A DNA stretch of 32,000 nucleotides from Pyrodictium delaneyi (GTDB lineage: Archaea; Thermoproteota; Thermoprotei_A; Sulfolobales; Pyrodictiaceae): positions 1,710,001 to 1,742,000 of the forward strand of contig NZ_CP013011.1 in NCBI RefSeq assembly GCF_001412615.1. Direction: 5' to 3'. Position 1 is the stretch's first letter, and every line of letters starts with the position of its first letter. Under the pieces are notes generated by a model. That model searched no databases. It was not told the DNA's origin and saw only the letters and a list, made by a program, of their open reading frames with translations. Made by a program: the position numbers and the translations under genes. Shown here piece after piece: positions 7,773-29,400 of the stretch.

Positions 7773-9101
7773 ATGGCGTCTGAGGCAGTCATCTCAGGAT
7801 TTGAAGTGGGACTGCTTGGTAGAATTATTGTTGCTTTGCTCTCCGGTATGCTTATAGGAATTGAACGTGAAAAAGCTAGGGCAGCGCTTGCAAGAAGGAA
7901 ACAGAAACGAATAGGTATAGAAGAATTTGTAGTCAAAGAGTTTCCGGGGCTCCGAACATTTAGCCTTGTAGCCGTATATGCAGCGGTCATCGGCATAATG
8001 TGGAACCGTAACCTCATAGATAGTATGCATGTATCTACTCTTCTTGCAGTATTCGGTTTGGTAGTAACATTATTCTCCGCTTATCGGCTTCTTGTCGCGA
8101 GAATGGCTGGTATAACTACTATAGTCGTCTTGTTAATGGACTTCGTTATAGGACTCCTGGCTGGTCTCGGAGAAGTGTTGTTGGCTGCAAGCATTGCTGT
8201 ATTAACCACTTTCATATTGGCCATAAAACTGCCTGCTGAAAGAATGGTCGGCAAGATACGGTACGAGGAACTTTTATGGGCACTAGAGCTTGGCGTAATA
8301 CTAGTAGTCATAGGACCATTCTTTCTCGAAGCAGAATACGAGTTCTATGGAGTCAGTCTCCGGAGCTTGTACTTATTCTTCGCACTTGTATTGGCGACAT
8401 CCTACATAGGCTACATTATGGCTAGGCTCAAGGGCGGGGAGGGTCTAGCCTATGCAGCCCTATTCGGTGGATTAGCTAACAGTGAGGCTACATTAATGGC
8501 CCTTCTTGCACTTGTTCCTGCCGAGCTGCGAAGAGTCCTCGCCTTTGATATAACAGTGCTCACTAATTCGGCTATGATACTGCGTAACGTTGTCATAGCA
8601 GTAGCAGCCGCCTACTTCGTTAGCTCAAAACCACTTCAGCTTAGTGACCTTGCACCGATCTTGATGGCTATGGTTCTATCCATAATGCCAGCTTTATTCT
8701 CATGGACTCGCTCGCTTCGTGGAGGTGCTCCCATAACCACTGTACGCATAGAAAATCCGTTACGTTTCAGCACAGCAGCAAAGAGTACCGCGTTGTATCT
8801 TATCATAACCTTCGTCTCGTATCTAGTCCAGCATAGTGGTCTAGCGAGTCTTGCAGTTGTCGTCATAGCAGGTGGATTTGTTTCAAGCAGTGCTACGATA
8901 CTTGTTCTATTTTCGCTTGGCAGCCTAGCACAAATCGATGTTGCCCGTCTTGCAGTTGTAGCAACGATAGCAGGCGTTCTGAACAAGACCATTTATGCAT
9001 ACCTAGTCGACAGTGACCCAGGTACACTAAAACGCGTAGGTATAGCGTGCGTACTTCAAGCACTGTTAATGACGCCTGGTCTTGTTCTGGAAGCTCTCTA
9101 G
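7773..9101 (+). CDS. MgtC/SapB-family membrane protein with an extended polytopic C-terminal domain (MgtC + DUF4010-like architecture)
   Basis: 442 aa and highly hydrophobic. The N-terminal LLSGMLIGIEREKA is the MgtC G..ERE signature. Confidence 0.75.
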   Translation: MASEAVISGFEVGLLGRIIVALLSGMLIGIEREKARAALARRKQKRIGIEEFVVKEFPGLRTFSLVAVYAAVIGIMWNRNLIDSMHVSTLLAVFGLVVTLFSAYRLLVARMAGITTIVVLLMDFVIGLLAGLGEVLLAASIAVLTTFILAIKLPAERMVGKIRYEELLWALELGVILVVIGPFFLEAEYEFYGVSLRSLYLFFALVLATSYIGYIMARLKGGEGLAYAALFGGLANSEATLMALLALVPAELRRVLAFDITVLTNSAMILRNVVIAVAAAYFVSSKPLQLSDLAPILMAMVLSIMPALFSWTRSLRGGAPITTVRIENPLRFSTAAKSTALYLIITFVSYLVQHSGLASLAVVVIAGGFVSSSATILVLFSLGSLAQIDVARLAVVATIAGVLNKTIYAYLVDSDPGTLKRVGIACVLQALLMTPGLVLEAL

Positions 9102-10442: not shown

Positions 10443-11018
10443 CTATTTCAAGTCTTCCTTGTCACAGTCAACTCGCTTTATAGGTATGTCAAGGCTACTG
10501 TTTATAGCATGCTGGAGCGCATATGCGAGGTCACTCAAACGATTAAGGATGCGAGCTGCTAGCCTGTGCTCTCTTTGTGGTTCTTTATCCAGAGCTTCTA
10601 TACATCGCCATAGGGAGCGCTCCGCCCTACGTATAACAGCTCTAGCATAAGATGTAGCGGCAGCCGCTGGATGACCACCGTTGAGTGTAAAGAATGGTTC
10701 GATGAACTTTGATAAATTGTCTATAATTTCTTCGAGTTGCTTTACATCATCTTCGCTTATGCATACTTTCCCATTTACAGTGAAACCCGTACGGAAGAGC
10801 AGTAGCTGCATGTATTCAAGGATCCTGGAGTACTCATCTACGGCCTCGTTTTTTCGGGAAGTAAGCGTTTCTAACAGACTCTGGGCCAGCCCTAGTGCAG
10901 CCTCAGCTTCGTCAAGGGCGCCAACAAACTCTATGCATGGGTGAGTCTTAGGAACACGACTTTTAGCTGCTAGGCATGTTGTATACCCGTCGTCCCCAGA
11001 CCTAGTGTACAGCTTCAT
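10443..11018 (-). CDS. pduO: PduO-type ATP:cob(I)alamin adenosyltransferase
   Basis: From the ATG at 11018, MKLYTRSGDDGYTTCLAAKSRVPKTHPCIEFVGALDEAEAALGLA matches the conserved PduO-type N-terminus (YT+.GD.G.T.L .. G..DE.n..lG). Confidence 0.85.
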   Translation of the reverse strand: MKLYTRSGDDGYTTCLAAKSRVPKTHPCIEFVGALDEAEAALGLAQSLLETLTSRKNEAVDEYSRILEYMQLLLFRTGFTVNGKVCISEDDVKQLEEIIDNLSKFIEPFFTLNGGHPAAAATSYARAVIRRAERSLWRCIEALDKEPQREHRLAARILNRLSDLAYALQHAINSSLDIPIKRVDCDKEDLK

Positions 11019-11080
11019 GCGCTTGACGTGTTGTTGCAGAGCAGCTCCCCCCGGAGGCACCTATTCTGGTGATAATGATT

Positions 11081-16308: not shown

Positions 16309-16620
16309 CTATTTTAGCCCGAGCCTTTTGAGGGCATAGTATATAGTGGACTCTGGTCGGTCGAGCCTTTTTGCTATCTCGTAGACCGAGGCGCCGCTGA
16401 GGTATAACTCCCGTATTTGCGCTAACTCTTCGTCGCTTAGACGTCGGTGTCGGCGGTATCGCCCCTTTCTTCTTCGTATCCGGCCCATAGCCTCGAGTCT
16501 GTCAAGCGCCTTATAGACGGTGCTCATACTATTGCCACAATGTTTTGCTATCTCCTTTACTGGGATGCCCTGGCTGTAAAGCTTCTCGACAATCTCGAGA
16601 CACTCTTCAACAGAGGGCAA
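16309..16620 (-). CDS. tandem helix-turn-helix protein (paired HTH, like a transposase N-terminal domain)
   Basis: 103 aa with an internal duplication: IVEKLYSQGIPVKEIAKHCGNSMSTVYKALDRL versus IRELYLSGASVYEIAKRLDRPESTIYYALKRL. The two copies are joined by the Arg-rich linker GRIRRRKGRYRRHRR. Confidence 0.65.
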   Translation of the reverse strand: MPSVEECLEIVEKLYSQGIPVKEIAKHCGNSMSTVYKALDRLEAMGRIRRRKGRYRRHRRLSDEELAQIRELYLSGASVYEIAKRLDRPESTIYYALKRLGLK

Positions 16621-16647: not shown

Positions 16648-16950
16648 TGCCGCTTACTTATTTTTCAGCATTCGGTTCCACTAGCCTCACGGGTATTAAT
16701 CCGTGCTGAAGGCTCCACCTATAGGTTAAATGTAGTCTGACTAGTACTGGTGCATAGTTACCTTTATGGCTATGATGCTGCTGCGCTGCCTAGATGTAGT
16801 TCTAATGAAGTATCGGTATAACTAGTGCTAGGATTATGGAGAGGTTTACTTATAGAGTTTGATGTTTAGCGGATGTTATAGTATGCTCCGTGAAGATATT
16901 ATTCTACATTTTCTATACTGCTGGACTGTTTAGGAACTATAAGAACTAGT

Positions 16951-16958
16951 TTTAAATA
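16951..16958 (+). promoter_or_regulatory. TATA box of the symporter operon
   Basis: tttaaata lies 28-35 nt upstream of the GTG at 16986, which implies a leaderless or near-leaderless transcript. Confidence 0.45.
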
Positions 16959-16985: not shown

Positions 16986-17270
16986 GTGTACAGTACGTTG
17001 TCAGCATCGACTCCTGTAGACCGAGAAGGCTACAAGAGAGCCTTTACAGCAGCGACAATAGTATTCTTCATCGCCTGGGCGATAATAGCAATAGGCTTCC
17101 ACCTACCCGCCAAGAGTCTTTACGCACCACCAGGGAGTCCAGAGCGCATCAATGGCGCGCCACTCAACTGGTGGATGATACAGATCAGCATAGCTCTTGG
17201 TGTTGTACTGGCTTTTATCTATGCATACGTGATAAACAAGCTTGATGAGAAGTTTGGAATAGAAGCCTAA
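16986..17270 (+). CDS. small membrane subunit of a sodium:solute symporter (DUF4212-like)
   Basis: 94 aa with two TM segments. The C-terminal YAYVINKLDEKFGIEA resembles the conserved ..MNRLDREYG.. end of DUF4212 proteins. It lies directly upstream of the symporter with a 13-nt gap. Confidence 0.7.
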   Translation: MYSTLSASTPVDREGYKRAFTAATIVFFIAWAIIAIGFHLPAKSLYAPPGSPERINGAPLNWWMIQISIALGVVLAFIYAYVINKLDEKFGIEA

Positions 17271-17283
17271 GGGGTGAGACCGC

Positions 17284-18978
17284 ATGGATGTAATAGCGGT
17301 CTCATTCCTCATATCAACCATAATAGCTTATATGCTAATAGCATACAAGTCTAGAGCCTTCACAGCCGAAGAATTCTATGTTGCTGCACGCAGGGTCTCA
17401 CCAATACGTAATGGTATGGCTACTGCAGCAGACTGGATGAGTGGTGCAAGCTTCATATCAATGGCCGGTGCTGTAGCTGCGCTAGGCTATGATGCAAGCG
17501 TCTTCCTAATAGGATGGAGCCTCAGCTACGTGCTACTGGCAATGCTCGTTGCCCCGTTCCTACGCAGCTACGGCAAGTACACTATACCGGACTTCTTCGA
17601 GGACCGCTACTATAGCAAGAAGGCCCGCCTCTTTGCCGTGATAATGCTCTACGTCGTGTCACTGACATATCTGACAGGTCAGCTGCTAGGCGTAGGTATA
17701 GTAATGGCTCGAGCATTCGGAATAGATGCGACTATAATGACTCTAATAGCGCCATTGCTGGTACTGCTCTACAGCAGCTTCGGTGGTATGAAGAGCATCA
17801 CCTGGACACAGGTGGCACAGTATATAGTACTAATATCCGCGTACTGGCTGCCAATAGTACTGATGGGGCACTTATGGAACCCGATACCGCACATAGCCTA
17901 TGGCGAGCACGTTGCTAAGGTTGACGAGACTGTACTAGAGCTCAAAGGCCATGCATGGACGGAGCCATTCTGGCGCCCCTACGCTAGCGGTACAGGTCAG
18001 CTAAACTGGCTACTCAGCACACTAGCACTAATGCTCGGCACAATGGGTCTACCGCACGTACTAATGAGATTCTACACAGTGCCAAGCGTCCGTGACGCAC
18101 GTAAGAGCGTGGCCTGGAGCCTATTCTTCATAAGCCTGCTATACTTGACGGCCCCAGTATACGCTGCACTAGCCGGCGAGAAGGAATACATGCTCCATGC
18201 AATGGTGAAGGAGCTCAGCGGTCAGCCTATAGACGTTGTGAAGGAGGAGCTAATGAAGGAGGCATGGGTAAAGAAGTGGATGGAAGCAGGACTCATAAAG
18301 ATAGCTGACAAGAATGGCGATGGTATATTCGAGTATGGTGTAGACACGTTTAGCATACACAAGGACATCGCTGTACTAGGCTTACCTGACATGTACGGTC
18401 TAGGACCAATAGTGGCATCAATAATACTCGTAGGCGGTATATCGGCAGCACTATCAACAGCTGATGGTCTAATACTAGCAATGACCACAGCAGCTACACG
18501 TGACATCTACAAGTCCATAATTAACCCGCGTGCTACAGAGAAGAAAGAGCTAATGGTCGCCAGGATATCGATGGTGATAATAGCATTCGTATCTGGTACG
18601 CTAGCATATCTGATGGCTGCTAACCCTGTGATAAAGGCATACATAGCTAAGACAGTAGCCTGGGCCTTCGCGTTTGCAGCGTCGACACTAACGCCGGCGA
18701 TGGTGCTTGGACTCCACTGGAAGAGAGCTACCAAGGAGGGTGCCATAGCAGGTATGATAGCAGGCCTAGCGGTAGCGGTGCCATATGTAGTTGGTGTATC
18801 ACTAGGGTATATGGAGCCTGTAAGCATTGCAGGCCAGAAGATAGGCACAATAGCTTGGGGCGTAATAGGCTTCTTAGTAAACATAATAGTCAATGTAGTA
18901 GTGTCGCTAATGACTAGTGAGCCGCCAAAGAGGGTACAAGAGCTAGTCGAGCAGATAAAGGTGCCAGTGAAGAAATAA
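17284..18978 (+). CDS. sodium:solute symporter family transporter (ActP/monocarboxylate-permease-like)
   Basis: 564 aa and polytopic. The N-terminal region AARRVSPIRNGMATAADWMSGASFISMAG is typical of SSS carriers of the ActP type. I cannot determine the substrate from sequence alone. Confidence 0.88.
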   Translation: MDVIAVSFLISTIIAYMLIAYKSRAFTAEEFYVAARRVSPIRNGMATAADWMSGASFISMAGAVAALGYDASVFLIGWSLSYVLLAMLVAPFLRSYGKYTIPDFFEDRYYSKKARLFAVIMLYVVSLTYLTGQLLGVGIVMARAFGIDATIMTLIAPLLVLLYSSFGGMKSITWTQVAQYIVLISAYWLPIVLMGHLWNPIPHIAYGEHVAKVDETVLELKGHAWTEPFWRPYASGTGQLNWLLSTLALMLGTMGLPHVLMRFYTVPSVRDARKSVAWSLFFISLLYLTAPVYAALAGEKEYMLHAMVKELSGQPIDVVKEELMKEAWVKKWMEAGLIKIADKNGDGIFEYGVDTFSIHKDIAVLGLPDMYGLGPIVASIILVGGISAALSTADGLILAMTTAATRDIYKSIINPRATEKKELMVARISMVIIAFVSGTLAYLMAANPVIKAYIAKTVAWAFAFAASTLTPAMVLGLHWKRATKEGAIAGMIAGLAVAVPYVVGVSLGYMEPVSIAGQKIGTIAWGVIGFLVNIIVNVVVSLMTSEPPKRVQELVEQIKVPVKK

Positions 18979-19025
18979 ACGGGGAAACCTCATGAACCAA
19001 AATACTGTTCCACGTGACATATTGA

Positions 19026-19031
19026 TTTTTT
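19026..19031 (+). terminator. T6 tract after the symporter gene (may double as part of a TATA-like element for the next gene)
   Basis: gaTTTTTTacaa lies 48 nt after the TAA at 18976-18978 and 68 nt before the ATG at 19099. Confidence 0.35.
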
Positions 19032-19098
19032 ACAATCACACGTATTTCCCCACACACCGTCTAAGCTTCTCGAACATCTACTCCTATGTAGCAAGATT

Positions 19099-20643
19099 AT
19101 GTTGCTTCATGAAAATGAAGAGACACGAAAGCCTGGCCTCTACATAGTCTATAGTGGTCTCGTCAATGCTGATTCCCAGCTTCTATCTTCCGGAGACTAC
19201 GTGGTATCCGAACACGGCGTCAAAGCAGTGGAAGAATCGATCATTATCTACGCTGATAACGATTGTGCGCGTATAGTTCTAACCTTTGGAGAAGAAGAAA
19301 CATGTACGGTGGGAGATCTTGTTTACCGCGATCCTGTTGTAGTTGAACCCCATACACCCGTTATTGAAGCAGTCAGAGTAATGCATCGTGAGGGTGTATC
19401 TTCGATAATCGTTGTCGACCAGCAAAGACGCCCTATAGGTATTTTTACTGATACTGATCTCCGCCGCCTCGTTGCACTCGGTAAAGATTTGTCCAAGCCT
19501 ATATCCGTGTTTATGACCCCTAGACCGTTAACTATAGGGCCTAATGCATCATGTATGGAAGCAGCCTTCATGATGATGAATAGATACGTCAAACACCTAG
19601 TAGTAGTGGATGATGTAGGTAAGGTTGCTGGAGTTATTACTGTACGTGATATAGCCTATGCTGAAGCTCTTGGTCCCCTTTACATGCTTCGGCGCATACG
19701 TAGCGCCTCCACTGTAGAGGAACTTGGAGCACGTTACCGTGAACTAGTCAAGCTTCTCCGAAAGGAGGCGCGTCGGTTACATCCTAGTGGTGGGGGTCGC
19801 GAGGCTGTTCACCTTATTCGTATGGCGAGTTTGGCTCTACGAGGTGTTATGTCGAAGGCTGTTGAATTAGCTGTAAAAGAGCTCGACATCAAGGAGAGCG
19901 GGTTTGCTTATCTGGCACTTGGTAGTAATGGTAGGCTTGAGCAGTTTCTGGCAAGCGATAGAGACACCATGATGGTGTATTGGGAGATAAGTGGGCAGAA
20001 AGCGCAGAGACTAGCTGAAGCTATTGAAGACATACTTGATAGAGTTGGATTCCCGGGATGCCGACATGGATATACTGCGCGCAGACTCCTTTATAGTAGA
20101 GAGGAATTGGCTGAACAATTACGTTCCATGTCATCTAATCTCGTAAACGAGAGCATAATCTTAATGAGCCTGATGTTTGATGCTGTTACCGTCTACGGTG
20201 ATTCGAATACTGCGCGTTGGCTGCGGAGAAGTATAGCGGAGTCGCTATCTAGTTCGAAGAGTTACATTCTGAGCACCATGACTATGTATAGGCCTAAACT
20301 AGGTTTAGCGGGTAGATTGCCCCATGAAATCGACTTGAAGGCCCATGGTCTTGCACCTATAGTATACACTATCAAGGCATTTTCAATAGCAGAGTCCATC
20401 TGGGAGCCTGTAAACACGCTGGATAGACTAACAGCCCTTGTAGCCAGAAACATAATTCCTAGCGACTTGGCTGCAGAAGTTGTTGAAGCTTATCGTACCC
20501 TTTCCGCATTTACTGTATGGGCTCAAGCACTACATGGCAGCACTAGAATAGATACTGGCGAGTTAAGCGGCTTCGAGAGATCTGTTCTGCGTTCTGCCCT
20601 ACGTTCTGTGCAACGCCTCGTAGATTATGCTAGAAGGAGGTGA
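19099..20643 (+). CDS. CBS-pair plus Pol-beta-superfamily nucleotidyltransferase (DUF294-like) signal-transduction protein
   Basis: 514 aa. Two CBS motifs span roughly residues 76-190. The NTase signature ALGSNGRLEQFLASDRDTMMV (G[SG]-x10-DxD) is encoded at 19921-19965. A helical C-terminal domain follows, as in the DUF294 substrate-binding domain. The first 70 or so residues look like a remnant of a cNMP-binding beta-barrel. Confidence 0.78.
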   Translation: MLLHENEETRKPGLYIVYSGLVNADSQLLSSGDYVVSEHGVKAVEESIIIYADNDCARIVLTFGEEETCTVGDLVYRDPVVVEPHTPVIEAVRVMHREGVSSIIVVDQQRRPIGIFTDTDLRRLVALGKDLSKPISVFMTPRPLTIGPNASCMEAAFMMMNRYVKHLVVVDDVGKVAGVITVRDIAYAEALGPLYMLRRIRSASTVEELGARYRELVKLLRKEARRLHPSGGGREAVHLIRMASLALRGVMSKAVELAVKELDIKESGFAYLALGSNGRLEQFLASDRDTMMVYWEISGQKAQRLAEAIEDILDRVGFPGCRHGYTARRLLYSREELAEQLRSMSSNLVNESIILMSLMFDAVTVYGDSNTARWLRRSIAESLSSSKSYILSTMTMYRPKLGLAGRLPHEIDLKAHGLAPIVYTIKAFSIAESIWEPVNTLDRLTALVARNIIPSDLAAEVVEAYRTLSAFTVWAQALHGSTRIDTGELSGFERSVLRSALRSVQRLVDYARRR

Positions 20644-21268
20644 AACTACTATAGTAGTACGTAGAGGTTATGTGGCGCTCGACATAGAAGCTACATGTCT
20701 TAACGCTAGAAAGTGTCAGCTAGTATCAGCGGTTGCGTTGCCGTTCTCGGATAAAGGCATAGACCTTTCTAGGGCGGTCTACTTTGTTGAGCCTCCTAGA
20801 GGTAATGCAGGGACATCGGCACTTATACATGGAATTGTCCGTTCAACTATAGGTATTGGTTCATTTTACGACATTATTGAGGCCATTAAGAAGCGCATAC
20901 TTATAGTCTATGGTAGGCATGATGTAGAGTTTATCGTAGAGGAGGCTAAACGAAGGGATATCAGTATCGGAGAGATGTGTTACGTTGACGTACTCTCGTG
21001 GATTCTAAGTATACCTTGCTGGCAAGAAGAAGCTAGAAAACGTGGGCGTTTTACGCTTGAGGATGCTCTTGAAGTAATTCTCGGGATTGTTTTGCCACGG
21101 CGGAGATTTCACGATCCTCTCAGTGATGCAGTTCACGTAGCATTGTTGTTTGTCCATCTGACAAATAGGCTGGGGAAACCTCCAGTAAAATGTGCTAAAA
21201 GTAATAGATCTAGTATCATTCATGCATTCAGACACTTTACTAAAAAGATAATTATGAAGCCTTTTTAG
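20627..21268 (+). CDS. DEDDh-type 3'-5' exonuclease (DnaQ/epsilon-like)
   Basis: 213 aa. Exo I is YVALDIEAT, an Exo II-like segment is VYGRHDVEFIV, and Exo III is FHDPLSDAVHVA (H-x4-D). The start overlaps the NTase gene by 17 nt. Confidence 0.78.
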   Translation: MLEGGETTIVVRRGYVALDIEATCLNARKCQLVSAVALPFSDKGIDLSRAVYFVEPPRGNAGTSALIHGIVRSTIGIGSFYDIIEAIKKRILIVYGRHDVEFIVEEAKRRDISIGEMCYVDVLSWILSIPCWQEEARKRGRFTLEDALEVILGIVLPRRRFHDPLSDAVHVALLFVHLTNRLGKPPVKCAKSNRSSIIHAFRHFTKKIIMKPF

Positions 21269-21471: not shown

Positions 21472-21500
21472 GAATATGAAAATGGCGAGGTGTGTGGTTA

Positions 21501-21752
21501 ATGGCAGATGAGAGGGTTGTAGCTTTTGTACTAGCTGTTACTGAAATAGGTAAAGAATATGATGTAGCTGAGAAAATACGAGAAGTAGCTAAGCAAGCTG
21601 GTGTAGATGTAGAAGCGTATGTAGTCTATGGGGAATATGATGTAGCTGCAAAGATAGTGGCCGATGGTCTACGTAAAATAGATAGAGCTGTAACTATGAT
21701 ACGAACCCTTCCAGGTGTTCTACGTACAGTTACACTGATAGCTGCAGAGTGA
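21501..21752 (+). CDS. stand-alone RAM (Lrp/AsnC ligand-binding) domain protein
   Basis: 83 aa from the ATG at 21501, with GAGGTG at 21487-21492 lying 8 nt upstream. VVAFVLAV..G.EYDVAEKIREV..V.EAYVVYGEYDVAAKIVA....KIDRAVT.IRTLPGVLRTVTLI fits the AsnC_trans_reg/RAM beta-alpha-beta-beta-alpha-beta pattern. There is no HTH domain. Confidence 0.72.
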   Translation: MADERVVAFVLAVTEIGKEYDVAEKIREVAKQAGVDVEAYVVYGEYDVAAKIVADGLRKIDRAVTMIRTLPGVLRTVTLIAAE

Positions 21753-24257: not shown

Positions 24258-26249
24258 TCACGTAATTATTAGAGCTTTTGAGCCGTCTCTTAGCACCTCT
24301 TGTATAATACTGAGCGGAAACGGAGCCTCATTGTACCCGGTGTAGTTTATTGACGTAGTCTTCGCAAGTGCTGGCTGTGCGCGGGTGCTATAGCGTATCT
24401 CTACCTGTGAGCCAGGGACTACTTCGTAGACTATCATGCCGGGGTCCTGTAGCGTGGTAGTCCTCTCTACCACTAGTGCGCCATTGCATCCTGCGAATGT
24501 GGTCGTATCGTTTAGCACTGTTATTGTAGCAACTAGTTTAGCCAAGCTAGAGGGCTCTACATGCATATTGAAAGGTACAGCTATGCTACTAGTCCTAGCG
24601 GTCTCGTTGTGGCTGTGACCTAGATATAATAGGAATTCGGCGCCAACTGGCGCTACGTAGCCTAGGTGCTCATCCATAGTGACGACGTCTACGGGGTCTA
24701 CAAGGTATGGCACCCAGCTTCCTATCCCGGCAGCGTATACTATCTCCAGGACTACTACCCCAGCAGCCGCGGTATAACCCAAGTACTTAAGCATCATAGG
24801 CGATATAGTTATAGCCTTAACTATCGTGCTGCTGAGCGCTACTGGTCTCAGCACAGTCACCGTGTACACGGGCTTCTGTACAAGAGGAAGCCATGCTGGG
24901 TCAAGACTGCTCGTTGGGGACACTATTAGCTTGCCTGGATCGTATGTATTTACGGGGAATACATGGAGTTTTATCGACACGTATACCGGTGGGTAGCTGA
25001 TCTTCGCTGTACCCACGTAGTTGTTGTCGCGGATTATCTGTGAAGTAATGTAGCAGCGGTAAGGATCCTTAATGAAGTACTCGTGAACCTTGGCCCCTTG
25101 TAGCCTGGGCACTAGTGTTACCACTATGGTCTCCGGGTTAGCATCCTTTGTCACTAGGAATGGTATTGTGAGAGAGCCAGCAACCCCGACAGCCTCGTAG
25201 CCTACCTTTACACCACCAGTAAGCGGTATGTAGCCAGGCACCTTGTACTCGGTAAAATGCTGCCAATAGCCAGTGCACGAGCCCCGGCTATACCGTTTCC
25301 TCCATACATCCCCCGTGTGTAGAAACCCGGCAGCATCTATCGATAATCCTGGCAGTCTAGAGCCGTAGCTATAGGGGTTTCCTAGTCGCCAGCAATAGCC
25401 GCTATTGGCTGGGACACTAACCCAGACAGCAGCCTCCCGGTGGCGCAGCAGGAGAAGACCACCAGCTAGCGGCTCCAGTATGCGCTCGTAGACGTACATC
25501 GTCTTCCTCTGGCCAGGCCTCAGCTCTATACTACTGCTTCTCTGCACATCACTAACCGGCAGCCCTGTGATAGCCGTGACGAGAGTACGCTCCGGGTCAA
25601 CATTCACGCCGGGAAGCAGTCCACTAGCGGCTACAGAGACCGGATTAACACCCAGCAGAAGAGGAGCCGTAGCCCACACAGGCTGCAGCAATGGACCATA
25701 GCTTATCTCTAAAACCTTCTCGATAACAGCATCTGCTGTAGCCTCCGCAATAGATGCAGTATCCAGGCCGGGTGCAGCGCATGACGTCGCATTATACAGC
25801 AGCTCCAAGCCATTTACCCGAGACCCCTCCAGGCACGGCTTACTAGGGTCAAGCTCGTAGCGGTAAAGCCATGCACCACCACTACGCCCTACAACAACAA
25901 GCTCAACATACCCACTACAAGGTATATCAACGACAACAGTGTTGTTCCTGTCGAACTGCCTGGTATACAGCAGCTTGCCACTAGACGCGTCAAAAACCTC
26001 GACAAGCCCCGGCTCAAACCCCTTCACTATGGGCTCAACCCTCAGCTGAGCACTAAGCCATCCCGAACTATTGCAGCTGCCGAGTGGCTCAAGCGTCATC
26101 CGCGGAGGCACCGACAAAGCCGCAGCATGTTCCGCAGCACTCCGAACCCCGGCAACACCCTGCGAGACAACAGCAGCCAAGACAGCAAGAGCAACTACAG
26201 TCATAGAAGCCAAGAGTACACCGTCAAAGAGACTACCATACCCCCTCAA
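24258..26249 (-). CDS. large exported/membrane-anchored protein with a class III (type IV pilin-like) N-terminus, function unknown
   Basis: 663 aa with a TTG start. The N-terminus MRG-YGSLFDGVLLASMTVVALAVLAAVVSQGV has a short charged tip, then R-G, then a stretch of about 25 hydrophobic residues, and the remainder is beta-rich with several Cys. Three hand-counted 60-nt lines inside the gene gave 58-62% GC, against about 47% in one line of the adjacent S-layer-like gene. Confidence 0.7.
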   Translation of the reverse strand: MRGYGSLFDGVLLASMTVVALAVLAAVVSQGVAGVRSAAEHAAALSVPPRMTLEPLGSCNSSGWLSAQLRVEPIVKGFEPGLVEVFDASSGKLLYTRQFDRNNTVVVDIPCSGYVELVVVGRSGGAWLYRYELDPSKPCLEGSRVNGLELLYNATSCAAPGLDTASIAEATADAVIEKVLEISYGPLLQPVWATAPLLLGVNPVSVAASGLLPGVNVDPERTLVTAITGLPVSDVQRSSSIELRPGQRKTMYVYERILEPLAGGLLLLRHREAAVWVSVPANSGYCWRLGNPYSYGSRLPGLSIDAAGFLHTGDVWRKRYSRGSCTGYWQHFTEYKVPGYIPLTGGVKVGYEAVGVAGSLTIPFLVTKDANPETIVVTLVPRLQGAKVHEYFIKDPYRCYITSQIIRDNNYVGTAKISYPPVYVSIKLHVFPVNTYDPGKLIVSPTSSLDPAWLPLVQKPVYTVTVLRPVALSSTIVKAITISPMMLKYLGYTAAAGVVVLEIVYAAGIGSWVPYLVDPVDVVTMDEHLGYVAPVGAEFLLYLGHSHNETARTSSIAVPFNMHVEPSSLAKLVATITVLNDTTTFAGCNGALVVERTTTLQDPGMIVYEVVPGSQVEIRYSTRAQPALAKTTSINYTGYNEAPFPLSIIQEVLRDGSKALIIT

Positions 26250-26491: not shown

Positions 26492-29400
26492 ATGAACACG
26501 CGCGTACTAGCCTCGATATTCACACTAGCCCTCCTACTAGCCCCGATAGTAGCACCGCTAGTAAAGCCGGCAGCAGCCGCAAGCTTCACACTAGAAGTAT
26601 CGGCACAGCAAATAGACTACAACGTCATACTCCTCGAGATTAAGGGTCTTCCAAGTGACACCCCGCCAGCAGTGCTACTAACACTCTACGATGACCTAGG
26701 TAACGTAATAGCTGGTACAGACGTCAACCCATACATGGCCATAGCAGGCTACATAGGTGGTGGTATCTGGCATGTATATATAGCACTTAACAAGACATTC
26801 GAGGCCGGTATATTCAGCTACGCTCATGCTAACACATCATCGACGAAGATAGGTCTAACAGATGGTACAGAGTACAAGGCCAGCGATCTCGGCGACATCA
26901 CATTCTATACCGAGGTAGGACTAGCATCTCCAACACCACTCTCTAGGACAACACCAGAGCTAGCAGTAAACGGCAAACTAGTAGCCAATATAACACAGCT
27001 AACTGGCAATGCTAACTACACAAGCGGTAACCTAACACAAGCATGGCCAATAGTGAACGCTATAAACACAAACATACCAGATGGTGGTAGTGTAAAGATA
27101 ACTGTCGACGCAGGCGACCTAGGCACAGCCAGCGTAACAATAACAGTAGGTCCTGCCGGCATACAAGCAATAACAACTGACTATCTAAACATGGCTCCTG
27201 AGAAGACAGTGACAGCAACACTAGAGGCTACAACAATAGCTGCTGACCCCACAGCAGTTAACAGCCTAACATTCGTAAACACAACATCCATGACACTCAC
27301 AACAAACAGCACTGGTCCAAACATAACGACCGTCTTTGACAGTTCTGCAGCAGACGCAGCTGTTAAGGCAGCAATTGCGGAGGTAGGCGGTACAAGCAAT
27401 ATAGTGATCAAGGCAAACGTCAGTAGTGGTTCAAACTGGACAGCTCTAAACCTAACTGCATCAAACATACCAAATGGCCTAGCTGTGTTCGTCAAGATAC
27501 AGTTCGAGGCATACTATAACGGCACAGATCAGTGGTTTAACAAGACAGCCTACATAGTCCTCACAAGCGATATGATGAACAGGCTAGTATTCAACTGGAC
27601 CGGTATCAACCTAACAGCAGGCTTCGCAAACATAAACATAGCTTCTGTAAAGGTTACAGTGGTGCCAGCTAGCATAGTAACCAACATAAACGGCTGGACT
27701 GGCGATACTGGCAAGAAGACAATAACACTTGACGACGGTTCGGTAGTAGAGGTCATAGGTGATGCTAAGGACTATGCCTTCATAGAGGAAGTAACAGCAG
27801 AGACAACTGGTAGCGGTACCTTCGCAGCCAGCATATACATGCCTGGCCGCGATGACATACCAAGCTATGACTTCATCAAGGAGAGCTATGGCGTCAATGA
27901 TGCACCGGTGGTAGTAACACTAACAGACGTGAATGGCGTCTCCAGCGACATAACTGGCTTCATAAAGCTACAGACTGGCGTGCTTACAGTAACCTCCGCT
28001 GTCAAGCCTGGCGAAACTCTAAGCATAAGCGTAGAAGACATTGACGCACCAGCAGTAAGTGTAGAAATAACACTCTACAAGACCGATGGCATTCAGGCGG
28101 CAAGCGGCACTCTCGACCTTGAGCAGACTGCTGAGGGCCAGTTCCAGGGCAGCCTAAAGATACTCCTAGGCTCACCAGCAGTAGATGCTGCTAACGGCGT
28201 AATATACGTCGATAGCAGTATCGCAAGCATCGAGGTCAAGTATGTAGACAAGTACGGAGCAGGCGGTAGCGAGGTAACAAGGCTAGCCAGCAGCAGCGTA
28301 GCATTCTGGCCAGTAGACATAAGCACACCAGCAGAGACCTACGCTGACGCGCGCCTAGATGTGACACTAACATCCCAGAACTTCAACCTAGACCCCAATG
28401 CTCGCGAGGTACTCTATGTAGAGCCAGTAAGCAGTACCAACTATGCTGAGGTCAAGTACAACGGTGTACTAGTAGGCAAGATCTATGTAGACGTATACGA
28501 CAGCGAGAACCTAGACTGGAGACAGGCAAGCGACATAGCACCATACATAAGTGACCTATTCATAGTGCACAGCTTCTTCGAGAGCGCAGCAGACAGCGGC
28601 CAGTACACGATATACGTATACATAAGGAACCTACCAAGCCTCAATGACGGTGACGTCATAAAGATAACATATGTGGACCTACTCAATGGCGTAGAAATAG
28701 TCAAGGAGATACCAGTCAAGGTAATCGAGGGCAAGATGACATTCCTCTACAACGGCGAGGAGGTAGACATAACAGAGCTACCAATAGCAGTAGCAAGCGG
28801 CGGTGACGTAGTAAGAACATTCACTATAAAGATAGACGACGCTGACGCTAACAAGAACATATCCGGATACGACCTAGCAACTGTATACATAGACTTCGTA
28901 AAGCAGGATGGCAGCATCATAGAAAAGAAGGTATACTTCAACGAGACTGACGTAGACACTGGCGTATTCGAGGGCATATTCAACATAACCTTCTACGCCA
29001 ACGGCACAGTAGTATTCGAGGTCACAAACGGCACAACAATGCTACCGATAAAGCTAGACAAGGCCGACCTACCATTCGGCAAGCTATTAATCAAGTACTA
29101 CGATGCGAGCGTGGGCACCAACATAACCAAGGAGATAAAGATAAGGACACCTGATACAGCAAGCCTCACAATAACACCAGTAGTAGCAGAGAAGCTAGAC
29201 GACAACATAACGATAACACTCAAGGACAACGACCTCAACGTAATACCCGGCGCTGGCAATGATGTACTACCTGCTGGCCTAGAGTTTACAGTAACTGCTG
29301 AAGGCGCAACCAAGGCAACACTAACAGTAGGCGACATAGAGGCTGCCGGCTACACCTTCGAAGAAGTAGAGCCCGGCGTCTTCCAGGTAACTATACCCGC

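What the first reader, a model, noticed from the sequence alone, without database searches (positions are those of the whole stretch)
16986..21268. Symporter module coupled to a CBS-nucleotidyltransferase and a DEDDh exonuclease in an archaeal genome
The sequence shows four co-directional genes with 13-nt, 120-nt and minus 17-nt junctions. They are a DUF4212-like small subunit, an SSS transporter, a CBS-pair plus Pol-beta NTase (GS-x10-DxD intact), and a DnaQ-like exonuclease with DxE and H-x4-D motifs intact. From memory, cNMP/CBS/DUF294 proteins and an epsilon-like exonuclease recur next to actP/acs-type acetate utilisation genes in many bacteria. To my knowledge the biochemical role of that sensor-NTase/exonuclease pair has never been established. 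My inference is that a complete, apparently catalytically competent copy in a hyperthermophilic archaeon argues for a portable functional unit. It may work as a ligand-gated nucleotidylylation or nucleotide-signal writer/eraser pair controlling monocarboxylate uptake. The alternative is that it was acquired horizontally.
Basis: partly seen in the sequence, partly recalled or inferred. Interest (0 to 1): 0.7.

Follow-up and report, generated by a model that had tools for sequence, protein, structure and literature searches.

The report
Archaeal monocarboxylate symporter–nucleotidyltransferase–exonuclease operon
This is the archaeal copy of a four-gene cluster already known from bacteria (a two-subunit organic-acid symporter, a CBS-gated GlnE-like nucleotidyltransferase and a DEDDh exonuclease) whose biochemistry is still unsolved; the archaeal copies move as a unit and offer heat-stable proteins for solving it.

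Summary
The four ORFs, their junctions and their motifs are in the sequence as described (Pyrodictium delaneyi, Pyrde_1718-1721). Three families pass curated HMM cut-offs. The exonuclease fails Pfam RNase_T, but profile, catalytic residues and predicted fold show it is a DEDDh enzyme.

One correction: the "120-nt junction" is not intergenic. A one-base loss in a T-run (19026-19031) cuts 36 codons from the NTase. Adding one T gives a 550-aa protein identical to that of a second P. delaneyi genome, and the true gap is 13 nt. The restored N-terminus is a cNMP-type domain that has lost its phosphate-binding cassette.

The module recurs in every archaeal locus with enough flank (Pyrodictiaceae, Thermoproteales, Caldarchaeales). 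Its gene trees agree with each other, its genomic contexts differ, and it often sits next to acetyl-CoA synthetase. The bacterial counterpart (PP_0354/PP_0353, PA3232-3235) is a published MxtR/ErdR target of unknown biochemistry.

The NTase half folds like the protein AMPylators GlnE and DrrA. In P. putida the exonuclease deletion mimics transporter loss on pyruvate, while the NTase deletion does not. I favour a nucleotidylylation writer/eraser switch on monocarboxylate uptake or activation (about 0.35); this is inferred, not shown. It is a new member of a known kind, of moderate interest.

The parts
16945..16958 (+). Putative BRE/TATA promoter element ACTAGTTTTAAATA, ending about 27 nt upstream of the GTG start. 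This implies a leaderless operon transcript.
   Evidence: Sequence read. The element ACTAGTTTTAWAT (or a close variant), followed about 30 nt later by a CGGTG start, is conserved upstream of the DUF4212 gene in L041, L001, L008 and L011. Its function as a promoter is inferred from the archaeal TATA consensus, not shown.
16986..17270 (+). Small hydrophobic symporter subunit (DUF4212 / TIGR03647), 94 aa, Pyrde_1718.
   Evidence: PF13937 scores 50.5 bits (cut-off 30) and TIGR03647 36.1 bits (cut-off 26.05). It lies 13 nt upstream of the large subunit.
17284..18978 (+). Large subunit of a VC_2705-family sodium:solute symporter, 564 aa, Pyrde_1719. It is not an ActP equivalog.
   Evidence: TIGR03648 scores 588.5 bits (cut-off 320.75). 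The ActP models score 163-193 bits against cut-offs of 750-1099. PF00474 gives E 1.6e-58.
18151..18405 (+). Extramembrane insert of about 85 aa that splits the SSF match. It contains a conserved D-x-N-G-D-G loop at 18307-18324.
   Evidence: The Pfam SSF match is split in two, with the first stretch at residues 31-290. The insert and the DxNxDG loop are conserved in archaeal and bacterial VC_2705-type transporters and absent from the ActP-like SSFs of L003, L013 and L039.
18992..19098 (+). True 5' end of the NTase gene (the ATG at 18992 and the first 36 codons), out of frame in this window because of a T6 run where relatives have T7.
   Evidence: Translation of the three frames and a reconstruction are. 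A DNA alignment to the 97%-identical relative L041 shows T7 against T6. The reconstructed 550-aa product is 100% identical to WP_088171888.1 from a second P. delaneyi genome.
19026..19031 (+). Homopolymer T6, the site of the single-base deletion (either an assembly error or a strain-specific frameshift).
19099..20643 (+). NTase ORF as encoded here (514 aa, Pyrde_1720). In order: the remainder of a degenerate cNMP-like beta-barrel, a CBS pair (about 19309-19662), the DUF294 NTase domain (about 19795-20100) and the DUF294_C helical domain (about 20287-20637).
   Evidence: Pfam hits are. The AlphaFold model of the full-length orthologue has pLDDT 88.4. The closest solved folds to the NTase half are GlnE AT (3k7d, E 1.8e-9), DrrA (6yx5, TMt 0.69) and GlnE AR (1v4a). 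The N-terminal domain compared with the bacterial cNMP domain gives hhalign probability 93.6% and E 2e-7, with 5- and 4-residue deletions in the phosphate-binding cassette. There is no PF00027 hit even at E<=1.
19921..19965 (+). NTase catalytic signature G275-S276-x10-D287-x-D289. The third invariant acid, D361, lies at 20179-20181.
   Evidence: These positions are invariant in alignments A3 and A5.
20627..21268 (+). DEDDh 3'-5' exonuclease-fold protein, 213 aa, Pyrde_1721. It overlaps the NTase stop by 17 nt. Catalytic codons: D19 20681-20683, E21 20687-20689, D99 20921-20923, H162 21110-21112, D167 21125-21127.
   Evidence: A profile of the family hits DnaQ, PolC-exo and RNase T structures. 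Orthologues in L012 and L014 pass the Pfam RNase_T cut-off. The PADLOC DEDDh model gives E 1.9e-7.
16309..16620 (-). Divergently transcribed double-HTH protein (Pyrde_1717), a candidate local regulator.
   Evidence: HTH_38, HTH_23 and TrmB hits. It holds the same position in L001 and L041 but is absent upstream of the module in P. occultum. A regulatory role is an inference only.

Best explanation
Shown. Positions 16986-21268 form one four-gene operon. It is the archaeal orthologue of the bacterial cluster 'DUF4212 small subunit + VC_2705-type Na+/solute symporter + CBS/DUF294 nucleotidyltransferase + DEDDh exonuclease', which in bacteria belongs to acetate, pyruvate, propionate and lactate utilisation.

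Inferred mechanism. The two membrane proteins import a small monocarboxylate. The NTase is a GlnE/DrrA-type protein nucleotidylyltransferase whose activity is set by adenine-nucleotide binding to its CBS pair; the cNMP input of the bacterial enzymes has been lost. It covalently nucleotidylylates a protein of the uptake or activation pathway, either the symporter complex or an acyl-CoA synthetase, and thereby holds that protein down. The DEDDh enzyme is the antagonist. It hydrolyses the protein-O-P(nucleotide) phosphodiester and releases a 5'-NMP, which is the same chemistry as removing a 3'-terminal nucleotide, and so restores activity.

In this particular genome sequence the NTase is N-terminally truncated by a 1-nt homopolymer deletion. 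Its catalytic core is intact.
For: Identity of the module:
- HMM scores above curated cut-offs.
- DEDDh assignment by profile, catalytic residues and fold.

Linkage is not random:
- All 5 archaeal loci with at least 2.5 kb on both flanks carry SSS, NTase and exonuclease, and every shorter archaeal locus is consistent with this.
- In bacteria, 11 of 15 NTase loci have an RNase_T gene within 8 kb and 4 of 15 have an SSS gene. My own rough estimate of the chance expectation is a few percent.
- NTase and exonuclease ORFs overlap or nearly abut in 9 of the 10 archaeal loci.
- NTase, exonuclease and SSS trees are congruent.
- The cassette sits in different contexts in P. delaneyi and P. occultum.

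Metabolic theme:
- Acs genes flank the module in Caldarchaeales and Thermoproteales.
- A 2-oxoacid:ferredoxin oxidoreductase and pyruvate kinase flank it here.
- In bacteria it lies next to actP/yjcH or glcB and is under MxtR/ErdR control.

Protein-modifying NTase:
- The best solved-structure matches are GlnE AT, GlnE AR and DrrA, all of which AMPylate or de-AMPylate proteins.
- DUF294_C is grouped with the GlnD/GlnE C-terminal domains in PMC3710099.

Antagonism:
- In P. putida, deletion of PP_0353 (exonuclease) impairs growth on pyruvate, as do deletions of actP-I and yjcH. Deletion of PP_0354 (NTase) does not.
- In Shewanella and P. stutzeri the 'RNase T domain protein' is cofit with the DUF4212/SSS pair.
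- This is the pattern expected if the mark is inhibitory and the exonuclease removes it.
Against: - No nucleotidylylated protein, no target and no enzyme activity has been shown for any member of either family.
- On propionate both P. putida deletions reduce growth while the transporter deletions do not. A simple model of 'writer off = no phenotype, target = transporter' does not explain this.
- No DEDDh enzyme is known to act on a protein-nucleotide adduct (my own knowledge). The exonuclease's nearest structural neighbours all act on nucleic acids.
- Many bacterial NTase/exonuclease pairs lack an adjacent transporter, so the target is uncertain.
- Fold similarity to GlnE and DrrA covers the generic Pol-beta core plus a helical domain and does not prove a protein substrate.
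- The cofitness statement labels the cofit gene both 'COG2905' and 'RNase T domain', so which gene was meant is my reading.
Confidence: 0.35

Rival explanations
1. RNA-level control. The DEDDh enzyme trims or degrades the 3' end of an RNA (the transporter mRNA, an sRNA or a tRNA), the NTase adds untemplated 3' nucleotides to the same RNA, and together they set expression of the symporter or of pathway enzymes.
For: The exonuclease's closest structures are RNase T, DnaQ and DinG-exo. [quoted passage not shown] Henriquez et al. speculated on mRNA degradation. Bacterial DUF4212 genes carry a conserved 5' RNA motif, the TIGR03647 riboswitch candidate, so RNA-level regulation of this transporter exists.
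Against: The NTase half resembles GlnE and DrrA rather than CCA-adding enzymes or poly(A)/poly(U) polymerases among the top solved-structure matches. Neither protein shows an RNA-binding domain. The archaeal operon appears leaderless, with a TATA element about 27-36 nt from the start codon, and has no Rfam match, so there is no obvious 5' RNA target here. A tailing-and-trimming pair does not readily explain why NTase loss is silent on pyruvate while exonuclease loss is not.
Confidence: 0.25
2. Nucleotide-signal pair. The NTase synthesises a small signalling nucleotide or oligonucleotide in response to CBS ligands, and the DEDDh enzyme degrades it (as Orn degrades pGpG). The signal acts on the transporter or on a regulator.
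For: Pol-beta NTases include second-messenger synthases, and DEDDh oligoribonucleases degrade dinucleotides (my own knowledge). Oligoribonuclease structures are among the profile hits. The writer/eraser genetics would also fit an inhibitory messenger.
Against: The top fold matches are GlnE and DrrA, not cGAS/CD-NTase-type enzymes. The NTase has no PADLOC/CBASS-type hit. No receptor domain for such a signal is evident in the module, and the cNMP-like domain has lost its phosphate-binding cassette.
Confidence: 0.08
3. No functional coupling. The exonuclease is a housekeeping DNA or RNA 3'-5' exonuclease, the CBS-NTase is an unrelated sensor, and both merely sit beside a transporter.
For: Single deletions give weak phenotypes in Pseudomonas. 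Many bacterial NTase loci lack an SSS gene.
Against: The genes are retained together in three archaeal orders and in bacteria, with overlapping ORFs, congruent trees and cassette-like relocation. The pair is co-regulated with actP and acs by MxtR/ErdR. Cofitness with the transporter has been reported.
Confidence: 0.04
4. In this strain the regulatory half is decaying. The T6 frameshift is real, and the NTase is made only as an N-terminally truncated form or not at all. This is not exclusive of the explanations above.
For: T6 here against T7 in a 97%-identical relative. The GenBank record annotates a 514-aa product.
Against: The reconstructed protein is 100% identical to that of a second P. delaneyi genome, with no other lesion. 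Homopolymer indels are a common assembly error (my own knowledge). The full-length ORF is intact in P. occultum and in all the metagenomic relatives found.
Confidence: 0.3

Closest known systems
Bacterial PA3232-PA3235 / PP_0353-PP_0354 type cluster (cNMP-CBS-DUF294 NTase + RNase_T exonuclease, with actP/yjcH or DUF4212/VC_2705 symporter genes; MxtR/ErdR = CrbS/R regulon)
   Same: It has the same four protein families and the same NTase-then-exonuclease order, often with overlapping ORFs. It is also linked to acs and to monocarboxylate metabolism. Both the archaeal and the bacterial partner exonucleases score best against PRK09145 or PRK09146.
   Different: The archaeal NTases are about 90 aa shorter. 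Their N-terminal domain has no PF00027 match and lacks the phosphate-binding cassette. The Pyrodictiaceae exonucleases are too divergent for Pfam RNase_T, lack the bacterial N-terminal extension of about 40 aa, and carry a conserved PPVKC motif plus a basic C-terminal tail. Neighbouring HTH and AsnC-type genes stand where the bacterial clusters are controlled by an SSS-type sensor kinase and response regulator, and a regulatory role for them is only an inference. The operon appears leaderless, so no TIGR03647-type 5' RNA is possible.
GlnE (glutamine synthetase adenylyltransferase) and GlnD (PII uridylyltransferase); Legionella DrrA/SidM with the de-AMPylase SidD
   Same: It has a Pol-beta NTase core with a G-[SG]-x(9-12)-D-x-D signature followed by a helical KNTase_C-clan domain. 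The closest solved folds are 3k7d, 1v4a and 6yx5. Reversible protein nucleotidylylation provides a working model.
   Different: There is no sequence-level membership; the only hit is a GlnD model at E 0.011. The protein has a single NTase domain, with no second NTase, HD or PP2C-type removal domain. The proposed eraser would be a DEDDh fold, which is unprecedented. The target protein is unknown.
ActP/YjcH acetate permease system
   Same: It is an SSF-family symporter preceded by a small membrane-protein gene. It is co-regulated or co-located with acs. The strain Hulk genome paper lists an 'ActP acetate permease' whose locus-tag spacing to a nearby acetyl-CoA synthetase suggests it is this gene.
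   Different: The ActP equivalog models score far below their cut-offs (163-193 bits against 750-1099), while VC_2705 family TIGR03648 passes. The small subunit is DUF4212, not DUF485/YjcH. In bacteria, substrates shown genetically for DUF4212/VC_2705 systems are D,L-lactate and D-alanine, so the substrate here is uncertain.
AcuABC control of acetyl-CoA synthetase (AcuB is a CBS-domain protein that binds AMP, ADP and ATP)
   Same: A CBS-domain adenylate sensor is tied to post-translational control of acetate activation. AcuB structures appear among the CBS fold matches.
   Different: That system uses a different chemistry (lysine acetylation) and has no NTase or exonuclease. The resemblance is only at the CBS-pair level.

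Membership tests
DUF4212 / TIGR03647 symporter small subunit | HMM score above the curated cut-off | tested here: met
   PF13937 scores 50.5 bits (cut-off 30) and TIGR03647 36.1 bits (cut-off 26.05).
DUF4212 / TIGR03647 symporter small subunit | Encoded immediately upstream of a TIGR03648 large subunit | tested here: met
   There is a 13-nt gap to the TIGR03648-positive ORF. The same arrangement is found in L001, L008, L009, L011, L014, L015 and L042.
VC_2705-family sodium:solute symporter (TIGR03648) | HMM score above the curated cut-off, full-length match | tested here: met
   588.5 bits against a cut-off of 320.75, with residues 6-561 matching model positions 2-547 of 547.
ActP cation/acetate symporter (TIGR02711, NF006903, NF009135) | HMM score above the equivalog cut-off | tested here: not met
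   163.1, 193.4 and 162.6 bits against cut-offs of 1099, 750 and 850.
COG2905-type cNMP-CBS-DUF294 nucleotidyltransferase | DUF294 (PF03445) and DUF294_C (PF10335) domains above cut-off | tested here: met
   63.7 bits (cut-off 21) and 65.9 bits (cut-off 22.5).
COG2905-type cNMP-CBS-DUF294 nucleotidyltransferase | Pol-beta catalytic signature G-S-x10-D-x-D plus a downstream acidic residue | tested here: met
   G275, S276, D287, D289 and D361 are invariant in 17 and in 26 homologues.
COG2905-type cNMP-CBS-DUF294 nucleotidyltransferase | Tandem CBS pair | tested here: met
   PF00571 with 2 stretches, 87.3 bits. The G-h-h-T-x-x-D motifs are present in both CBS repeats (GIFTDTD and GVITVRD). Ligand binding itself was not tested.
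COG2905-type cNMP-CBS-DUF294 nucleotidyltransferase | N-terminal cyclic-nucleotide-binding domain (PF00027) | tested here: not met
   The restored N-terminus has no PF00027 hit even at E<=1. It is homologous to the bacterial domain (hhalign 93.6%, E 2e-7) but has deletions in the phosphate-binding cassette.
GlnE/GlnD/DrrA-type protein nucleotidylyltransferases | Fold of the NTase core plus the C-terminal helical domain | tested here: met
   Foldseek: 3k7d E 1.8e-9 over 385 columns; 6yx5 TMt 0.69; 1v4a E 2e-8. The query model has pLDDT 88.4.
GlnE/GlnD/DrrA-type protein nucleotidylyltransferases | Transfers NMP to a protein side chain | not testable with these tools
   This requires biochemistry.
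DEDDh (DnaQ-like, Pfam RNase_T PF00929) exonucleases | Pfam or NCBIfam score above the curated cut-off | tested here: not met
   The window protein has no PF00929 hit, and PRK09145 scores 40.3 bits against a cut-off of 189. Orthologues in L012 (46.8 bits) and L014 (26.7 bits) pass the PF00929 cut-off of 24.
DEDDh (DnaQ-like, Pfam RNase_T PF00929) exonucleases | Five catalytic residues: D-x-E (Exo I), D (Exo II) and H-x4-D (Exo III) | tested here: met
   D19, E21, D99, H162 and D167. The alignment columns are 40/40 D, 40/40 E, 30 D + 10 E, 40/40 H and 39/40 D.
DEDDh (DnaQ-like, Pfam RNase_T PF00929) exonucleases | RNase H-like DnaQ fold | tested here: met
   The model has pLDDT 88.8. Foldseek gives probability 1.0 to DnaQ (8h2f, TMt 0.79), RNase T, DinG-exo, epsilon and TREX. 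A profile search against PDB gives 2p1j at E 2e-36, and the PADLOC DEDDh model gives E 1.9e-7.
DEDDh (DnaQ-like, Pfam RNase_T PF00929) exonucleases | 3'-5' exonuclease activity on nucleic acid | not testable with these tools
   This requires an enzyme assay.
Anti-phage defence systems (PADLOC) | Match of the NTase or the transporter to a defence-system model, or a nearby CRISPR array | tested here: not met
   The NTase, SSS and DUF4212 proteins have no hit, and the exonuclease hits only the generic DEDDh model. The window has no tandem repeats.

The most novel reading that the evidence does not exclude
A DnaQ-fold 'exonuclease' acts as a protein de-nucleotidylylase. It removes AMP or UMP that a CBS-gated, GlnE-like NTase has placed on a sodium:solute symporter complex or on an acyl-CoA synthetase. 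This would form a conserved bacterial and archaeal writer/eraser switch that tunes monocarboxylate uptake or activation to cellular adenylate status.
Probability: 0.2. Interest if true: 0.8.

Novelty: new member of a known kind. Interest (0 to 1): 0.45.

Why it matters
The DUF294 NTase/exonuclease pair is widespread. It is strongly induced with acetate, propionate and pyruvate genes in Pseudomonas, and it has gone without a biochemical function for more than 25 years, counting from the 1999 prediction of Aravind and Koonin cited.

The archaeal copies add three things:
- **A minimal core.** The invariant core is CBS pair + NTase + DEDDh enzyme + symporter. The cNMP input is dispensable.
- **Evidence of a functional unit.** The four genes are inherited and relocated together across three archaeal orders, which argues for direct functional coupling.
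- **Material for experiments.** The proteins are hyperthermostable and compact, which suits structural work and in-vitro reconstitution.

If the eraser idea holds, it would add a new enzyme class to reversible protein AMPylation or UMPylation, and a new way of regulating secondary transporters or acyl-CoA synthetases. If it does not hold, the locus is an ordinary orthologue of an already catalogued cluster.

Tried and rejected
- **PDB sequence search, exonuclease alone.** It gave only a spurious ApcE hit. A family profile was needed.
- **PDB sequence search, NTase.** It found only CBS-domain structures; no DUF294 structure has been solved.
- **First genome scan.** The scan with a mixed archaeal and bacterial alignment failed for lack of a conserved stretch, so I repeated it with the archaeal alignment. 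The bacterial loci recovered are therefore biased towards sequences that share two archaeal peptide motifs (mostly Desulfobacterota), though they are not biased in their neighbours.
- **Exact look-ups.** The look-ups of P0097 and P0094 found nothing. I reached P. occultum through its exonuclease instead.
- **Defence-system reading.** Rejected.
- **cNMP sensor reading of the N-terminus.** Rejected at the family level, although homology to the bacterial domain is retained.
- **TIGR03647 riboswitch candidate.** Rfam gave no match in the window, in five archaeal loci or in four bacterial loci with DUF4212 genes. Without a positive control this says nothing about the bacterial motif.
- **ACTAGT palindromes.** The three copies upstream of the operon looked like operators, but only the copy fused to the TATA box is conserved in other genera. 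I read that copy as part of the BRE/TATA element.
- **SidD_C hit.** A weak hit in one bacterial partner exonuclease (22.6 bits, cut-off 27) is below threshold and lies outside SidD's catalytic domain. I treat it as chance.
- **Trees.** The NJ trees have no bootstrap support and thin bacterial sampling, so they cannot give the direction of inter-domain transfer.

Full report
**Source and observation.** The window comes from Pyrodictium delaneyi. ORF4 is 100% identical to Pyrde_1721 on a 2,023,836-bp contig, and ORF3 is Pyrde_1720.

**Family checks.**
- ORF1 passes DUF4212 (50.5 bits, cut-off 30) and TIGR03647 (36.1 bits, cut-off 26.05).
- ORF2 passes SSF and, decisively, TIGR03648 'VC_2705 family sodium/solute symporter' (588.5 bits, cut-off 320.75). 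It falls far short of the ActP equivalogs.
- ORF3 passes CBS (two repeats), DUF294 and DUF294_C.
- ORF4 is the weak point. It has no Pfam hit, no PDB sequence hit and only sub-threshold PRK09145 and PRK09146 matches.

I settled ORF4 in four ways:
1. A profile of ORF4 and its three close relatives, run against 1.84 billion representative proteins, found 7 tight relatives. It then found a tail of proteins of about 220 aa, most of which are Pfam RNase_T and PRK09145/6-like.
2. In the joint 40-sequence alignment D19, E21 and H162 are invariant, D167 is present in 39 of 40, and position 99 is always D or E.
3. The family profile hits PolC-exo, epsilon, DinG-exo, Cas2-DEDDh and RNase T structures.
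4. An AlphaFold model (pLDDT 88.8) matches DnaQ, RNase T, DinG-exo and TREX with probability 1.0.

In addition, orthologues from Thermoproteales and Caldarchaeales pass Pfam's RNase_T cut-off. The NTase signature G275-S276-x10-D287-x-D289 and D361 are invariant in archaeal and bacterial homologues.

**A correction: the 120-nt junction.**
- All close NTase homologues are 548-560 aa, against 514 aa here.
- An ATG at 18992, 13 nt after the symporter stop, opens a frame encoding MNQNTVPRDILIF, which matches the homologues' N-termini. The frame is then lost at a T6 run (19026-19031).
- A 97%-identical metagenomic relative has T7 at this site.
- Inserting one T yields a 550-aa protein with zero differences from WP_088171888.1, the protein of a second P. 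delaneyi genome.

So the gene is tightly packed like the others (13, 13 and -17 nt). The copy in this assembly carries either a homopolymer sequencing error or a very recent frameshift.

**The restored N-terminus.** It folds as two helices plus a beta-barrel. It is homologous to the cNMP-binding domain of the bacterial enzymes (hhalign 93.6%, E 2e-7), with 5- and 4-residue deletions inside the phosphate-binding cassette. It gives no PF00027 hit even at E<=1. The archaeal enzymes therefore keep the domain but have most likely lost cyclic-nucleotide binding.

**Operon boundaries.** An ACTAGTTTTAAATA element ends about 27 nt upstream of the GTG start. This element, and a CGGTG start about 30 nt downstream of it, recur in four other Pyrodictiaceae loci. 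That fits a BRE/TATA promoter and a leaderless transcript; this is an inference from the archaeal consensus. A T5 run overlaps the exonuclease stop codon. No Rfam family, tRNA or tandem repeat lies in the window.

**Distribution.**

| Group | Loci | Finding |
|---|---|---|
| Archaea, at least 2.5 kb on both flanks | 5 | all 5 carry SSS + NTase + exonuclease, with the exonuclease directly downstream of the NTase |
| Archaea, shorter loci | 6 | all consistent with the same arrangement |
| Bacteria, at least 2.5 kb on both flanks | 15 | 11 have an RNase_T gene within 8 kb; 4 have an SSS gene |

- The scan of one genome per GTDB species used the archaeal NTase alignment and returned 34 loci. I scored them with my own HMMs.
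- The archaeal lineages are Pyrodictiaceae, Thermoproteales and Caldarchaeales. Gene order is co-directional in Pyrodictiaceae and Caldarchaeales; in Thermoproteales the transporter is divergent.
- Additional bacterial look-ups show the pair beside a convergent SSF gene or beside malate synthase G.
- NJ trees of NTase, exonuclease and VC_2705-type SSS each place the archaeal sequences in one clade with the same internal grouping. The trees have no bootstrap support and bacterial sampling is thin.
- The cassette's surroundings differ between lineages:

| Lineage | Genes around the cassette |
|---|---|
| P. delaneyi and two relatives | 2-oxoacid:ferredoxin oxidoreductase, GNAT, pyruvate kinase, HTH / module / AsnC, DUF432 |
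| P. occultum | ribosomal protein genes / module / a DUF87 ATPase |
| Caldarchaeales | Acs on both sides |
| Thermoproteales | Acs and aldehyde:ferredoxin oxidoreductase downstream |

The four genes thus behave as a portable, co-inherited unit tied to C2/C3 acid metabolism. One ancient inter-domain transfer followed by descent is the simplest reading, but the direction is unresolved.

**What is already known.**
- Price et al. confirmed that DUF4212 is needed for its SSS partner (D,L-lactate in Shewanella, D-alanine in P. stutzeri). They noted cofitness with a nearby 'RNase T domain protein' and speculated that it is needed for expression of the symporter.
- In Pseudomonas, PP_0354 (cNMP-CBS-NTase) and PP_0353 (exonuclease) form an operon that is a direct MxtR/ErdR (CrbS/R) target. 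In P. aeruginosa the homologues sit next to actP/yjcH (PA3232-3235) and are induced about 16-fold on propionate.
- Deletion phenotypes in P. putida:

| Carbon source | Exonuclease deletion (PP_0353) | NTase deletion (PP_0354) | Transporter deletions (actP-I, yjcH) |
|---|---|---|---|
| Pyruvate | impaired | little or no effect | impaired |
| Propionate | reduced growth | reduced growth | no significant effect |

- A September 2026 preprint still calls the function unclear and suggests protein modification.
- The strain Hulk genome paper lists an 'ActP acetate permease'. Its locus-tag spacing to a nearby acetyl-CoA synthetase suggests that it is this symporter; that is my inference. AMP-forming Acs activity has been measured in P. 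delaneyi.
- I found no paper that mentions the archaeal NTase/exonuclease pair.

**Mechanism.**
- Shown: an intact Pol-beta active site, a CBS pair with both G-h-h-T-x-x-D motifs, an intact DEDDh active site, and tight gene coupling.
- New here: the NTase half of the full-length model (pLDDT 88.4) is closest to E. coli GlnE (both the adenylylation and the deadenylylation domains) and to the Legionella AMPylator DrrA. This agrees with the published grouping of DUF294_C with the GlnD/GlnE C-terminal domains. It points to a protein substrate rather than to RNA tailing or messenger synthesis.
- Chemistry: a DEDDh enzyme cleaves X-O-P(5'-nucleotide) bonds and releases 5'-NMP. Replacing the penultimate ribose 3'-O with a Tyr, Ser or Thr oxygen would make it a de-nucleotidylylase.
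- Fit to the genetics: if the mark is inhibitory, the published pyruvate phenotypes follow. Loss of the eraser mimics transporter loss, and loss of the writer is silent.
- What does not fit: the propionate data, where both mutants are impaired and the transporter mutants are not. No DEDDh enzyme is known to act on proteins.
- I therefore hold this model at about 0.35. The rivals are RNA-level control at about 0.25, a small-nucleotide signal at about 0.08, and no coupling at about 0.04. The remainder is left for something not yet imagined.

**Verdict.** The locus is a new (archaeal) member of a known but biochemically unsolved kind of module, with lineage-specific trimming of the cNMP input and a highly divergent exonuclease. 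Interest is moderate. It does not answer the open question, but it narrows the conserved core and supplies good material and a sharp epistasis test.

Noticed in passing
window 18151-18405 (DxNxDG loop at 18307-18324): The VC_2705-type symporter carries an extramembrane insert of about 85 aa with conserved W-x-K/R-x-W, a D-x-N-G-D-G-I/K loop resembling a Ca2+-binding DxDxDG motif, and H/D-K/R-D-I-x-V-L-G-x-P-D. The insert is shared by archaeal and bacterial family members and is absent from ActP-like SSFs. Its topology and role are unknown. It is a candidate regulatory surface.
   Followed up: partly
window 16309-16620 (-) and 21492-21752 (+): A divergent double-HTH protein lies upstream of the module and a small protein consisting only of the AsnC/Lrp ligand-binding domain lies downstream. 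Both are syntenic in L001, and the HTH protein is also syntenic in L041. They are absent around the P. occultum cassette. They are possible local regulators.
   Followed up: partly
window 24258-26249 (-) and 26492-30607 (+): Two large ORFs (663 and 1371 aa) have no Pfam match at E<=1e-4. They lie in a stretch with unusually strong positive AT skew (0.23-0.36 from about 26 kb to 32 kb) and higher GC. They may be surface or secreted proteins of this cannulae-forming genus, but I did not examine this.
   Followed up: no
L042 4346-6004 (P. occultum): The public P. occultum record for the NTase (CF15_00635) is 383 aa, but the locus holds an intact 552-aa ORF that overlaps the symporter stop and the exonuclease start. 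The database entry is an under-called start, not a truncation.
   Followed up: yes
L019 4907-7075, L027 9682-11844, L033 1143-3314, L029 2-1735: In several Desulfobacterales loci the exonuclease near the NTase is a protein of about 720 aa. Its RNase_T domain is C-terminal, and about 530 N-terminal residues have no Pfam match. The neighbouring NTases are about 780 aa with two cNMP-binding stretches. These are possible informative fusions.
   Followed up: partly
L006 7001-8800: A long-form cNMP-CBS-DUF294 NTase lies in a locus with haloarchaeal-type neighbours (HVO_A0261-like IclR). It sits after an amino-acid permease and a Usp gene, with no exonuclease within 7 kb. The NTase can therefore pair with other transporter types without the DEDDh partner.
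   Followed up: no
L028 9409-10113: One bacterial partner exonuclease gives a sub-threshold hit to SidD_C (22.6 bits, cut-off 27), the C-terminal domain of the Legionella de-AMPylase that opposes DrrA. It is probably chance, but it is curious given the DrrA-like fold of the NTase.
   Followed up: no
window 3249-6119, 7773-9101, 1419-1937, 10443-11060: The remaining neighbours are ordinary: an Lhr-type large helicase, an MgtC/DUF4010 membrane protein, a HIT-family hydrolase and a cobalamin adenosyltransferase-like protein.
   Followed up: no
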